A stretch of 64,000 bases of DNA from NCBI GenBank assembly GCA_964016885.1, contig OZ024743.1:163928001-163992000 (forward strand), in the 5' to 3' direction. The stretch comes from Eledone cirrhosa (Eukaryota). Of this stretch, positions 2,426-60,889 are shown piece by piece. The notes beneath the pieces were generated by a model. That model saw only the letters and a program-made list of their open reading frames with translations. It had not been told where the DNA came from and searched no databases. The translations under genes were made by a program, and so were the position numbers. The number at the start of each line of letters is the position of its first letter. The stretch's first letter is position 1.

Positions 2426-2531
2426 ATATTAGTCTAATGATTTTTTCAGAGCAAAAATGCTTTTTTCAAAGCAAGAAATTGTTCTTCTTGAAAAAAGCAT
2501 TTTTGCTCTGAAAAAATCATTAGACTAATAT
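2426..2531. repeat. Perfect inverted repeat, about 44-bp arms, 18-nt loop
   Basis: ATATTAGTCTAATGATTTTTTCAGAGCAAAAATGCTTTTTTCAA (2426-2469) is mirrored at 2488-2531. Confidence 0.9.
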
Positions 2532-2832
2532 TCTCCTTGCATATATTTCGCCCATCGTCAGAGAATGTCTTCTTGAACCAACGTTATGTCTTTCTGTTTT
2601 TTTTTCGTTGTAACGTTTTTTGAAATATTTACTTGTGTCATACATAGGAAAAATAATTGTTTTTATAAGGAACAATTTATTCATATAACATGCTCTACAT
2701 GATTACCACTCTTTATGAACATGAATTAGCACATATAGAAAATTAAAAATGTAATTATTTTTCTGATGTATTGCGACCTTTGGTCCACCCTGTATATATA
2801 TATATATATATATATATATATATATATATATA

Positions 2833-3131
2833 TATCACCTTGATCACCTTGATTGACCAGTCTGTCGGGCGCCACTGCTCACAGCACATGCTGTTTTAGC
2901 CATACGATGACGCCATCCCACTGGCTGGGCGGGCAGGCCGTAAGTCTAGAGTCTGTCTTAAGCCAGAAGGCTTATCCCGGTTTCATGGCGTGAAGCGACT
3001 GAGAGTACAAGACTTCCCCCTGGACAGGACGCCAGTCCATCGTAGGGTTAAACCTCCAGCTATTGCTGGTACTCATTTTCAGCTGAGTAAACTGGAGCAA
3101 CGTGAAATAAAGTGTCTTGCTGAAGGAAACA
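2833..3131 (-). mobile_element. Third SINE type (CORE-like + V-domain-like), head missing
   Basis: Shares CAAGACACTTTATTTCAC.TTGCTCCAGTTTACTCAGCTG with family A, then GATGGACTGGCGTCCTGTCCAGGGG and a different tail. Confidence 0.65.
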
Positions 3132-3220
3132 TATCAAGCGTTAACCTTCCATATACTGTACCGATTGTGTCATTATTTTTGTTTACCTTTTACATATATA
3201 TATATATTCAATATAGAAAT

Positions 3221-3272
3221 GGCTTCTACAGGACTAAAACTGTTTCATTCGGAAGAAATCATCAGGAAAGCC
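3221..3272 (-). ncRNA. Type-I hammerhead ribozyme motif
   Basis: Minus strand: GGCTTTC-CTGATGA-tTTC ttcc GAAt-GAAA-CAG..CTG-TA-GAAGCC. Stems I and III pair; the first pair of stem II is mismatched. Confidence 0.65.
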
Positions 3273-4262
3273 CTCTGTTGAACCCAGCATAAACATATAT
3301 ATATATATATATATATATATACTATATTGTATTGTTCTCCTTTGATTTTTTTTTATTTGTTGACTGTTCTTATACACACAGAGACACACACACATATATG
3401 TGTGTGTGTATATATGTATAACTATGGTGCATTGTTCTCAGTATGAAAGCAAAAACTGGGATGTGTGATTGTCATCCAACTCCAAACCCCCCACCCCCAA
3501 CCCCCCACCCCAGCCATTTCTGTGACAACAAAGATGTAATCCCCACAAAAAAATTTAAAGGTGTGATTTCTATTCTGTTTTCTCTGACCCCATTTTTGTG
3601 TATTTATTCTGATATGTCAAGGACTTATCTTTGTTGTCAAAACAAATCTACCCCATCCTCTCACCAATCAGCCTTAATTCCCCCACCCCAACCATCTGCC
3701 CTAAATCCCTAAATATTTTATTTCATAACAATTGGCCCCTTTCTGTCACATCTTTAAGTCCTCCCTTCACCCAAAGCACTCTTCTTCAGTAGTTATCAGT
3801 AGCAGCAAGAGCAATAAGATTATCAGCAGCAGCAGCATCTAGAGAGCCATCATCATAGGCATCATTATCATCACTATCATCTTCATAGTCACCATCAACA
3901 TAATCATCATCATCCAAGCAGCAGCTGCTGGTGAAACAGGGCTTTTTTTTAGGAGGTGTTGGTGAGGATGATGGTGGTAATTACTCTCTGGGATCCAAAA
4001 TAATGGGGGGGGGGGGGGCAGTAATTTTTCCATGTTGTCTCCCATTATTTTTTTCTAAAAACACAATTAGTTTTTTAGGTTACATATTGAGACCCCCCCC
4101 CCCCCCGATTCATCCTATTTATTATATAACATGAGATTTCTTGTAATGTTAAATTTTGGTCATGTGTAACAGTTTTTTAATGTCTAACCTTTTAGTACTT
4201 ACATAACTCTCTATATACTATTGTATTTTCACCGTAAAGGCTTTACCTCACAATATCTTACA

Positions 4263-4574
4263 TAATTGTTTCTACTATTGGCACAAGGCCAGCAATTATC
4301 CAGTACATTACTGGTACTTTATTTTATCGACCCTGTAAGGATGAAAGGCAAAGTGAACCTCGGCGGGATTTGAACTCATCTTACATAATTGTTTCTACTT
4401 TAGGCACAAGGCCAGCAATTACCCAGTACATTACTGGTACTTTATTTTATCGACTCCGTAAGGATGAAAGGCAAAGTTAACCTCGGCGGGATTTGAACTC
4501 AGACTGTAAAGGGACGTAACTATGCTAGAAAGCATGGTGTTCAACCCTCTACCGATACTGCCAATCCACCGCCC
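4263..4574 (-). mobile_element. Two tandem SINE-B copies (truncated 4263-4378; near full 4386-4574)
   Basis: Same Meta-like domain and tail; flanked by repeated ATCTTAyATAAT. Confidence 0.88.
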
Positions 4575-4904
4575 TTCACTCATCTTATATAATATCGGCC
4601 AGTTATGGTTGGTTTGAACTGAAAGAGGTGAGAGAATTCTGGACGGATATGGCTGGTTTAACTGCTAAAGTGTTAAAGAAAATTAATTGTCGCAAAAATG
4701 CTACCACTTAAAATAAAATTTTGCCGGAGATAAATTAACAAAATTTTCACCTCACACCTCTTGAAGCTTAACATTTTCATAGCTATGTACATATGTGTGT
4801 ATACATTTAATATTGATGGTCACAAGAATAAGTACTCAATACGATAAGAGATATTGATAATATTTCTCAAGGTCATGTCAGAGACCTGTTACTCCAGAGC
4901 AGTC

Positions 4905-57782: not shown

Positions 57783-57992
57783 TATATACGTGGAGAAATA
57801 TATAAAGGAGAACAAACCGTTAAAACATGTTTATTTAAAATAGCACCTACGTACGTTTCGCCCGACTGGGCTTCTCACTGGCATAACAAATTAAAAAGCG
57901 TTCCTTACATGACACATAAATGTACGTAGTTGGTATTTTAAATAAACATGTTTTAACGGTTTGTTCTCCTTTATATATTTCTCCACGTATAT
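57783..57992. repeat. Inverted repeat, about 70-bp arms
   Basis: ATATACGTGGAGAAATATATAAAGGAGAACAAACCGTTAAAACATGTTTATTTAAAATA is mirrored. Confidence 0.9.
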
Positions 57993-58369
57993 CCGCTCTG
58001 CTGATTTTCTCGCCCACTAGATGTTAACACTTCTAATATTTAACCCTGCAGGCACAAGCATTGAGTACCCTTTGCATATGCTATTGGCAAATAACTACAT
58101 GTATTGCCTATCTCTTCTTCTCTCTCTTGATACTTAATTACTATATATATATATATATATATATATATATATATATATATATATATATATATATAGTGTG
58201 TAACGTTTTTCGAAATATTTACTTCTGCGTTCACAGATTGATTTTTTTTGTTTCAGAAGATCCCGTTAAGGGTGACAGCAGCGATTCTTTGCTTAAACTT
58301 TAATCTGTTATTTTAATATATATATATATAATATATAAGATCAAAAGATGGTTAAAAGAGTTCCATGTA

Positions 58370-58436
58370 TTTTATTATGCGCATTTCAAAAACAAATATC
58401 ATCATGCAATAACATTTGTGTTTTCATCAGATAAAA
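58370..58436 (-). ncRNA. Hammerhead ribozyme, relative of 48580-48645 (solo PLE pseudo-LTR piece)
   Basis: TTTTAT-CTGATGA-AAA..TTT-GAAA-TGCGCA-TA-ATAAAA. Confidence 0.75.
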
Positions 58437-60525
58437 TAGGAAGACATGATATGAAGGTTAAAAAACACTTGTGAATAGTGCAGTTTTAAATCAACATATA
58501 TATATATTCGTGTACAGACATTTTTGCATGAACAAAACAAAATATAAACAAAAGTATTTATTTCACGAGGCTCGATAAGGATAAATATATATCAAATATA
58601 TAAGAACCCGAGAGCAAATCCCGAGCAACGCCGGGCCATTCTGCTAGTCTATATATATAAAACTGAGGATGTCTGTCTGTGTGTGTGTGAGTTTGAATCC
58701 CTAAAACTAGAGAAGCACTGAACCGACTGCTTTCAAACTTTACACATGTAATACTTATGTTTCACGGAGTGTTCTGAGCAAAAAATTTTTTTAATTTTCA
58801 ATGCCCTAGGGACCGCATTAGGCGATTTAGCGATCTCTCTCTATAATTCGTAGTCTTTCTCTTTTTAGATAGATACATACATATAACGTCGCACCCTTAT
58901 AATATCTCTCTGTATGTCTGGCTGTCTGCATCGCACTCGGCACATCAATGTATGGCTGTTAAACGGACAGCGAACGCATTCTGATTCATTGTAAAGGCTA
59001 CCAGTGGAAGCAACCGTAACACCCTCCAAATTTCAGAGAACGCAGTCAAAATCACTATTAAGGCACTTTTTAGGACCTCCACTTGAAATTGTTGATAGTT
59101 ACCCATCCTTACTGGGGTGTCAGTGAACGGCTTACACGGCCCTTATAAGGGCCCTTGAAATAGCTGATGGCGACCCTTTCGTTTAGGGCTGCCAGTGAAC
59201 ACACACACGCCTGGGGGGCCCATTTTATTGCACCATTCCTCTTTAAATTTGTTAAATTATACCCACAGTTTGGTAAACATTTGTCCAGTTGCGTTTACTT
59301 ACTAAGGTGCGGTGGACTCCTTTGAGAAGGCTCCACATGCTGTCCGATTGCATGTCATGCCTTGCTCAAGCATTGCAGACTTCCCTCTGACATAAGTGGT
59401 GACATCTGTCCTGTTGAATCATGCAACTTTATTAAAGTACAAAAGCACCAAGCCGATTTACTCCACGTGGAAGGAGAAGCATACCTAATACTAATTGCAT
59501 CAGAGTATTCGGTTTATTTTCTTTACATATTGTCCAGGCATGCAGTTTTTCCAAGATTAGGTCTGTTGGCGGCCCGCGTTATGTTTCAGGGAGTGTTATG
59601 CACATAAAAAATTCAACTTTTTGATCCCTTAGGGCCCGCATTAAGGGGTATTTTGAGGCATTACGTCAGATCGATTTCCTTGAAATTGTAACTATCTATT
59701 AGTCAGTCTCTTCTTCATACCGTAAGCAAAGAAAATCCAACTTTTTTATGGCCTAGGTGAAAAACTTCATTTTTTCATCTTTTTAGGGCTTAATTTAGGC
59801 GTTACGTCTAGCCGAGTTTCCCGAAATTTCAAGGCATATTATGCACATAAAAAAATTCATTTTCTTGATGCCCTAGGGCCAGCGTTAGGTGAAAACCTGC
59901 ATTTTTCCTGCTTCATCGAGGAAAATCTTAAAGATTATCCACCCATCAGAGTATTCGGTTTATTTTCTTTACATATTGTCAAGGCATGTAGTTTTTCCAC
60001 GATTAGGTCTGTTGGCGGCCCGCGTTCCAAAATACCTTATCCCGTGCAACGCCGGGTACCACTGCTAGTATATTATATATATATTTATATATTATATATA
60101 TATTTTATATATATATTATATATTGTATATTATATATATATATTATATATATATATATTATATATATATATATATTATATATATATATACACATTACATA
60201 TTATATATTATATATATATATTATATATATATACATATTATTTATTATATATTATATATATATATATAAAATATATATATATATATATAATGCCTCTTTA
60301 ATTATTAGACTATTCTCTTGTATTATCTTTTGCATGTATTTCACTCTGTGCTTTTAATTTTAATTTTAATCTTAATTTGAATTATTGTACAATTCTCGTA
60401 TAATATATGTCGCCTCCATTACACCCTGTATATACTAAACTGTTGTTCACAACATCAATATATATGTATCTATATGATTGTTCAGTTGAATTAGGAGGTT
60501 AATTATATGTACAAACATTGATAAT

Positions 60526-60570
60526 ACTCCGATGACTCCAAACTAAAGTTTGGAAGAAACAATTTTTAGT
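60526..60570 (+). ncRNA. Degenerate hammerhead motif
   Basis: ACT-CcGATGA-cTCCAAAC taaa GTTTGGAa-GAAAC-AATT..AGT; strong stem II, damaged core. Confidence 0.5.
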
Positions 60571-60579
60571 GATTAAATG

Positions 60580-60889
60580 ATTTGAACATAACTTTGATAT
60601 TTGTGTAATTTATATTCCTGCTCTGTAAAACACCTGATGTTCTTACATTGAGCTATTTCTCTTACTGGTAATAAGGTAGTAGTAAATTACTGACCTTTCC
60701 TGTTTATAGTTATTTATTGTATAGTATATGCATAACTATAAATACTATACAATAAATAACTATAAACAGGAAAGGTCAGTAATTTATTACTACCTTATTA
60801 CCAGTAAGAGAAATAGCTCAATGTAAGAACATCAGTTGTTTTACAGAGCAGGAATATAAATTACACAAGTATCAAAGTTATGTTCAAAT
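60580..60889. repeat. Long fold-back inverted repeat, about 148-bp arms, about 14-nt loop
   Basis: 60580-60727 is mirrored at 60742-60889 with few mismatches; ends at (TA)n. Confidence 0.93.

What the first reader, a model, noticed from the sequence alone, without database searches (positions are those of the whole stretch)
2426..60889. Recurrent unit: minimal hammerhead ribozyme next to a fold-back inverted repeat
Seen: four unrelated inverted repeats each have a hammerhead-like motif beside or inside them. These are 2426-2531 (CTGACGA-tgggc-GAAA on minus at about 2531-2565), 51518-51710 (HHR 51777-51824), 57783-57992 (degenerate GCCC agtc GGGC-GAAAC in the loop) and 60580-60889 (HHR 60526-60570). 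Three end in or are centred on (TA)n. Known: PLE pseudo-LTRs carry minimal type-I hammerheads and PLE insertions often show inverted terminal copies. Inference: several families of short non-coding ribozyme-plus-hairpin elements (solo pLTR or retrozyme-like) that integrate at (TA)n by snap-back or template switching.
Basis: partly seen in the sequence, partly recalled or inferred. Interest (0 to 1): 0.75.

Follow-up and report, generated by a model that had tools for sequence, protein, structure and literature searches.

The report
Penelope retrotransposon ends with hammerhead ribozymes
These hairpin-plus-ribozyme units are truncated ends of a known kind of jumping gene (Penelope-like elements) sitting in TA repeats; one hairpin is the textbook back-to-back insertion, the other three likely arose by local DNA fold-back, and one claimed ribozyme is not real, so the finding is largely ordinary.

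Summary
The four inverted repeats are real. Three of the four hammerheads (HHR) are genuine family motifs, mutated in these copies; the motif at 2531-2565 is a chance match on the antisense strand. Each unit is a dispersed family (231-3637 search candidates) with fixed 3' ends at (TA)n. Three families run upstream into RT + GIY-YIG frames with Hydra-clade PLE motifs; the fourth (51656-51834) is a non-coding 426-438 bp tandem unit (retrozyme-like). In a systematic 1 Mb sample 47 of 115 HHRs lie within 100 nt of a close inverted repeat (shuffles: mean 18.6, max 33); 49 of 56 point away from its centre, the published inverted 5'-truncated PLE copy. In such pairs one arm stops at the pLTR end, the other at the tail end (10 of 10; 8 of 8), as twin priming at two RT start sites would give. 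Only unit 57784-57992 has this form. The fold-backs at 51518 and 60580 are rare tail-side duplications (1 of 53 other family copies), also seen with no HHR (50897-51242), so HHR-plus-hairpin is not one element type. Known biology; this scan reported the same footprint on other DNA of this genome.

The parts
57788..57918 (-). Unit 3: inverted, 5'-truncated arm of a Hydra-type PLE, ending at the pLTR end against (TA)5
57841..57885 (-). Type-I HHR of the U3-A8 core variant (family UUGAGAA); this copy has U3 changed to G, predicted inactive
   Evidence: variant described in PMC4209133
57918..58143 (+). Unit 3: second arm, 5'-truncated inside HHR stem III, running through pLTR end and the ~150-nt tail into (TA)27
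60290..60744 (+). Unit 4: 5'-truncated 3' end of a Hydra-type PLE (pLTR end 60615, tail to about 60744)
60523..60573 (+). Type-I HHR, U4C core (CCGAUGA), palindromic stem III; cleavage triplet GUC of the family reads UUU in this copy
60742..60889 (-). Tail-side fold-back copy (148 nt, 3 mismatches), ending at (TA)34 next to a 5'-truncated LINE fragment
51656..51834 (-). Unit 2: truncated copy of a non-coding 426-438 bp HHR repeat (retrozyme-like, non-autonomous PLE-type)
51776..51825 (-). Type-I HHR; family core CUGAUGA, this copy C3U
51518..51575 (+). Fold-back copy of the element's last 58 nt across a (TA)n patch, outer end at (TA)8; arms identical and share 3 derived changes
2395..2637 (+). 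Unit 1: old fragment of the 3' UTR of a third Hydra-type PLE family; breaks off before that family's real HHR (CAGAAGA core)
2488..2538 (-). Inverted copy of 2419-2469 that replaces about 20 nt of family sequence (local template switch, unique to this copy among 25)
50897..51242 (.). Control case: fold-back centred on (TA)54 made of flank plus SINE 5' part, no HHR, beside the 5'-truncated end of a PLE
48565..50858 (-). 5'-truncated Hydra-like PLE with RT and endonuclease remnants and an intact-looking HHR at 48580-48645

Best explanation
The units are truncated 3' ends of Penelope-like retroelements (three families with Hydra-clade protein motifs, one non-coding tandem relative) that carry a predicted hammerhead in the pLTR and end at (TA)n; the back-to-back inverted arms likely form when the element's endonuclease cuts both strands of a (TA)n site and both DNA ends prime reverse transcription, one at the pLTR end and one at the tail end. 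Steps: (1, shown) fixed 3' ends at (TA)n, HHR 48-63 nt upstream of the pLTR end, upstream RT-EN frames; (2, shown) head-to-head pairs with one tailed and one tail-less arm; (3, inferred from PMC11167929) both strands cut and extended from two internal RNA start sites; (4, inferred) two truncated cDNAs are joined. Unit 3 is this product. Units 2 and 4 and the HHR-free repeat at 50897 are a second, rarer product: a free 3' DNA end at or near (TA)n likely folds back, copies 50-150 nt of its own strand and is rejoined to (TA)n; they lie beside HHRs because PLE ends lie beside (TA)n. Unit 1 is likely a later local template switch in an old PLE fragment.
For: Families dispersed: 3637, 1639, 231, 1145 candidates. 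(TA)4+ right after the family end in 23 of 30, 25 of 25, 23 of 25 loci versus 10-17% background. Long copies lead upstream into frames with DKT, LYRDD, CxCx5C, YIGxT, CxxC-E and CxH, the Hydra signature of PMC8557442 section 11; its supplement lists Hydra-1_Obim with (TA)n preference and an HHR. 1 Mb systematic sample: 115 HHR-like motifs versus 6 and 6 in reversed and complemented controls; 47 of 115 within 100 nt of an inverted repeat versus mean 18.6, max 33 in 1000 within-locus shuffles; 49 of 56 nearby HHRs point away from the centre (with the stricter descriptor: 42 of 92 versus 15.3, 43 of 49). Head-to-head pairs end at [+63, +206..215] in 10 of 10 (unit-3 family), [+51..53, +125] in 8 of 8 (Rfam-selected family), [+48, +201..215] in 6 of 8 (unit-4 family; 2 cut by locus edge). 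5' inverted copies within 1.5 kb in 7 of 30, 7 of 25, 15 of 25 loci, 3'-side ones in 1, 0, 2; 7 and 0 of 18 Rfam-selected loci. Published: inverted 5'-truncated copy and one-sided tail (PMC8557442; PMC3846280); both strands cut and extended, two RT start sites (PMC11167929). Independent runs show the 60615 end followed by (TA)n (59 raw reads in X6) and a 74-nt contig with 1 mismatch across the unit-4 centre.
Against: Pfam support is weak: GIY-YIG E=0.0073, below cut-off, and no RT hit for the PLE frames; homologues are unnamed; no tree was built, so Hydra rests on motifs. No coding partner was found for the unit-2 family, whose pair ends are mixed (18 pairs); the unit-1 family shows the clean short/long pattern in only 12 of 20 pairs. 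The long end is capped by reference length, and unit-4 loci were picked with a query containing the tail. HHRs paired in one repeat are not independent counts. 92 of 126 inverted repeats have no full HHR within 100 nt, though many printed ones hold half an HHR or a pLTR end (29 shown). The enzyme behind the tail-side fold-backs is undetermined. No HHR activity was tested.
Confidence: 0.85

Rival explanations
1. Several families of short non-coding ribozyme-plus-hairpin elements in which the hairpin is part of the mobile unit.
For: Real HHR-inverted-repeat enrichment; the unit-2 family is non-coding and tandem (4 of 25 loci).
Against: Junction points differ in every pair; the window's hairpins are not shared by relatives; three families continue into RT-EN frames; unit 1 has no HHR.
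Confidence: 0.05
2. Head-to-head arms come from self-priming (snap-back) of a single cDNA or antisense template, as proposed in PMC3846280, not from two primed target ends.
For: Many centres have no spacer, and in the unit-1 family 5' ends cluster near -34 to -46 from the cleavage site, inside the HHR; published proposal.
Against: Arms usually have unequal 5' truncation and different fixed 3' ends, which a copy of one strand explains only if it is then cut exactly at the pLTR end.
Confidence: 0.2
3. The tail-side fold-backs (51518, 60580, 50897) are made by the PLE or LINE machinery itself, which extends the self-annealed second target end during an insertion.
For: 50897-51242 abuts the 5'-truncated end of a PLE and 60580-60889 the 5'-truncated end of a LINE; 7 of 7 strict (TA)n-centred hits have (TA)n at an outer end.
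Against: 51518-51710 abuts a SINE 3' end instead; host repair makes fold-back duplications at breaks in yeast (PMC11724301, abstract only); one of the 7 hits is a tandem-repeat region; too few cases.
Confidence: 0.3
4. The palindromes are read or assembly fold-back chimeras.
For: Arms at 51518-51710 and 50897-51242 are identical or nearly so and were not tested with reads.
Against: Units 3 and 4 have 3 arm differences each; arms obey family-specific ends in independent loci; public contigs hold another head-to-head joint of the unit-3 family and cross the unit-4 centre.
Confidence: 0.05

Closest known systems
Hydra clade of C-terminal EN+ Penelope-like elements, incl. Hydra-1_Obim (Craig et al. 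2021, PMC8557442; passages, section 11 and supplement hits read)
   Same: DKT, CxCX5C, CxxC/CxH motifs, C-terminal GIY-YIG, HHR near 3' end, (TA)n targets, 5' truncation, inverted 5' copy, one-sided tail
   Different: Different families; tails here are about 70-165 nt rather than 30-40; non-canonical cores (U4C, U4A, U3-A8); the HHR printed for Hydra-1_Obim differs by eye from these four
PLE minimal hammerheads (Cervera and de la Pena 2014, PMC4209133; parts 1-2 of 4 read)
   Same: Type-I, short palindromic helix III, extra nucleotide before stem II, U3-A8 variant, pairs of motifs 100-700 bp apart on opposite strands
   Different: Much higher density here (about 110 per Mb in the sample); U4A/U4C cores were not seen in the parts read
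Poseidon PAc mechanism (Frangieh et al. 2024, PMC11167929; parts 1-2 of 4 read)
   Same: AT-rich targets, two RT start sites bounding the tail, both strands cut and extended, HHR cleavage dispensable (here 16 of 16 and 16 of 20 arms extend past the predicted cleavage site)
   Different: Different clade; the one-tailed pairing is counted here from genomic copies only
Animal non-LTR retrozymes (PMC7229834, passages; bioRxiv 10.64898/2026.07.22.740005, part 1 of 5)
   Same: Unit-2 family: non-coding tandem monomer with type-I HHR
   Different: 426-438 bp monomer, mostly solo or head-to-head copies; circular RNA not tested
Fold-back inverted duplications at DNA breaks (PMC11724301, abstract and outline only; tail-to-tail self-priming anticipated in PMC3846280, passages)
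   Same: Local inverted copy templated from the break's own strand
   Different: Longer here (50-150 nt) and tied to (TA)n

Membership tests
EN+ Penelope-like element | RT followed by C-terminal GIY-YIG endonuclease upstream of the pLTR | tested here: met
   Families of units 1, 3, 4: motifs and tblastn; Pfam GIY-YIG E=0.0073, below cut-off
EN+ Penelope-like element | HHR in the pLTR, sense strand | tested here: met
   24 of 30, 19 of 25, 17 of 25, 16 of 45 loci pass the descriptor
EN+ Penelope-like element | 5' truncation, inverted 5' copy, optional tail on one end | tested here: met
Hydra clade | DKT and CxCX5C linker, CxxC and CxH around E/N | tested here: met
   (DKT in units 1 and 4 families; CxCX5C in units 1 and 3, and in L108 for unit 4)
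Hydra clade | Phylogenetic placement with reference Hydra RTs | not tested
   Reference sequences were only read in the supplement; no tree built
Hydra clade | (TA)n insertion preference | tested here: met
Neptune clade | CX2-5CxxC zinc finger in the linker | tested here: not met
   no such motif between RT and GIY-YIG in the 7 regions scanned; my first label was dropped
Non-LTR retrozyme (unit-2 family) | Non-coding tandem monomers each with a type-I HHR | tested here: met
   Tandems in 4 of 25 loci, period 426-438 bp; no linked frame found in 5 extended loci
Non-LTR retrozyme (unit-2 family) | Expressed self-cleaved linear and circular monomer RNA | not testable with these tools
   needs RNA data or bench work
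Type-I hammerhead (motif at 2531-2565) | Conserved core and three helices | tested here: not met
Type-I hammerhead (units 2-4) | Self-cleavage | not testable with these tools
   window copies carry core or cleavage-site changes; relatives look intact

The most novel reading that the evidence does not exclude
A dimeric Penelope enzyme uses both ends of a cut (TA)n: normally each end primes at a different fixed RNA site (giving strictly one tailed and one tail-less arm), and when one end fails to engage RNA it folds back and the RT copies host flank DNA, so PLEs would generate on the order of 10^5 palindromes in this genome, including ones made of SINE and unique DNA.
Probability: 0.3. Interest if true: 0.55.

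Novelty: new member of a known kind. Interest (0 to 1): 0.27.

Why it matters
It explains a conspicuous class of palindromes in this genome by known PLE biology and adds counts: about 110 hammerhead motifs and about 126 close inverted repeats per Mb in the sample. The near-strict one-tail-per-pair rule is a genomic footprint that a biochemical system (PMC11167929) could test directly. The tail-side fold-backs are a small open question.

Tried and rejected
Rfam scan of the window: no hammerhead hit; RF00163 on the genome found another family only. Neptune label dropped after an earlier-finding lead. Naiad considered for the unit-1 family, rejected: C-terminal endonuclease and an HHR are present. 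MFE folding did not recover the hammerhead fold for most motifs, as expected for unstable helix III; not used as evidence. PDB sequence search of the RT piece: none. Atlas search unavailable. First (TA)n-centred scan was swamped by TA-rich satellites; the strict version found 7 in 1.66 Mb, 0 in the 1 Mb sample, and missed 50897 and sample cases seen, so no frequency is claimed. Only 10 of 115 sample HHRs have an endonuclease hit upstream on the same strand (5 on the opposite strand), most copies being truncated. Run search: no RNA holder listed. X4 gave 1 and 0 laid records. Earlier-finding searches near the window and for tail-side fold-backs returned nothing. Paper searches did not show a paper counting one-tailed pairs; this is four searches, not proof of absence; bioRxiv supplements were not seen.
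Full report
Observation. The window lies in a 3.0 Gb genome. The four inverted repeats exist with arm matches of 49/51, 58/58, 68/71 and 145/148. Rfam reports no hammerhead in the window. The motifs at 60523-60573 and 57841-57885 are decayed copies of motifs that pass in 24 of 30 and 19 of 25 related loci. The motif at 2531-2565 is not conserved (3 of 25 aligned members have CTGANGA), lacks stems II and III and is antisense to its element.

What the units are. Each is a dispersed family with 3637, 1639, 231 and 1145 first-look candidates (40 scored per search, 25-30 fetched). 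Copies share fixed 3' ends followed by (TA)n in 23 of 30, 23 of 25 and 25 of 25 loci against 10-17% background, and ragged 5' ends. Extended loci (17 fetched) show that the unit-3 and unit-4 families lead upstream into RT and GIY-YIG-like frames; the unit-1 family does too. The motifs DKT, LYRDD, CxCx5C, YIGxT, CxxC-E and CxH match the Hydra clade as defined in PMC8557442 section 11, whose supplement lists a (TA)n-targeting, HHR-bearing Hydra-1_Obim. I first called them Neptune; earlier scan notes suggested Hydra and the motif test agreed. Pfam support is weak and no tree was built. The unit-1 family has its own HHR with a CAGAAGA core near its 3' end, beyond the point where the window copy breaks off. 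The unit-2 family is non-coding with 426-438 bp tandem monomers in 4 of 25 loci, like non-LTR retrozymes (PMC7229834, passages; bioRxiv 10.64898/2026.07.22.740005, part 1 of 5).

Co-occurrence. In 100 evenly spaced 10-kb stretches there are 115 HHR-like motifs (controls 6 and 6) and 126 close inverted repeats. 47 of 115 motifs lie within 100 nt of a repeat, against a mean of 18.6 and a maximum of 33 in 1000 within-locus shuffles; paired motifs in one repeat are not independent. 75 of 126 repeats have (TA)n at an outer end versus 17% for random placement. 49 of 56 nearby motifs point away from the centre. Only 34 of 126 repeats have a full motif nearby; among 29 printed motif-free ones many are pLTR ends truncated within or past the HHR (read by eye).

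Mechanism of the common form. In head-to-head pairs one arm stops at the pLTR end and the other runs through the tail: 10 of 10 pairs in the unit-3 family, 8 of 8 in an Rfam-selected family, 6 of 8 in the unit-4 family (two cut by locus edges), 12 of 20 in the unit-1 family; the 18 pairs of the unit-2 family are mixed (long ends are capped by the reference). 5' junctions differ in every pair, and most arms extend past the predicted cleavage site (16 of 16, 16 of 20), so the template was mostly uncut there or circular. The inverted 5' copy and one-sided tail are published (PMC8557442; PMC3846280; opposite-strand HHR pairs in PMC4209133). PMC11167929 shows a PLE protein cutting and extending both strands and starting at two RNA sites that bound the tail. 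I infer twin priming from the two ends of a cut (TA)n. Unit 3 is such a product: a tail-less minus arm at 57788-57918 and a tailed plus arm at 57918-58143.

The other three. Units 2 and 4 have the fold-back on the 3' side of the element, seen in only 1 of 53 other copies of those two families and 0 of 18 Rfam-selected loci. Unit-2 arms are identical and share 3 derived changes; unit-4 arms share 2 and differ at 3, so they were copied from the local DNA. The same layout without any HHR stands at 50897-51242, built from flank and SINE sequence around (TA)54. A free 3' end folding back at (TA)n, copying its own strand and rejoining explains all three; host repair does this in yeast (PMC11724301, abstract only), and tail-to-tail self-priming is anticipated in PMC3846280. 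Two of the three abut the 5'-truncated end of a neighbouring retroelement, one does not, so the enzyme is open. Unit 1 is an internal inversion unique to this copy that replaced about 20 nt of an old PLE 3' UTR.

Artefact check. Arm differences and family-specific ends argue against chimeras for units 3 and 4. Public contigs hold a different head-to-head joint of the unit-3 family but none spans the window's own junction; a 74-nt contig with 1 mismatch crosses the unit-4 centre, slightly short of the tool's bridging rule, and 59 raw reads show the pLTR end at 60615 followed by (TA)n.

Verdict. Real, mostly known: ends of Hydra-type PLEs and one retrozyme-like relative. Earlier reports of this scan describe the same twin-arm footprint on other DNA of this genome (leads, not support). 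Interest 0.27.

Noticed in passing
L141-L240 (1 Mb sample): About 110 HHR motifs per Mb above background, many families; on the order of 3x10^5 genome-wide if the sample is representative
   Followed up: partly
window:58199-58354 and L141, L144, L162, L173: Abundant HHR variant with CAGAAGA core (U4A) at the 3' end of the unit-1 family; 14 CAGANGA motifs in the sample; window copy has GACA for GAAA
   Followed up: partly
window:58143-58440: Three different PLE-type ends stacked at (TA)n tracts, two of them tail-to-tail at 58325
   Followed up: no
window:24946-25796 (-): Another truncated PLE: endonuclease remnant 25796-25350 with HHR at 24946-25001; a further remnant near 16440-16785
   Followed up: no
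window:27137-27340: Inverted repeat between (TA)6 tracts with no descriptor hit; perhaps another head-to-head pair
   Followed up: no
window:51824-51843: Tiny 8-bp fold-back at the 5' junction of the unit-2 copy, where it meets a LINE fragment
   Followed up: no
L214:16-3418: Array of 8 HHR-bearing monomers of about 476 bp (retrozyme-like)
   Followed up: no
L170:51-5407; L193:49-6114: Kilobase-scale palindromes (arms 2.7-2.9 kb, 93% identity)
   Followed up: no
window:54827-55133: Short repeated unit in alternating orientation among (TA)n
   Followed up: no
window:30489-31737; 10681-11907; 37813-38730; 43984-46270; 63287-63805: Older spaced inverted repeat; LINE RT remnants; a DDE_1 transposase fragment
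   Followed up: no
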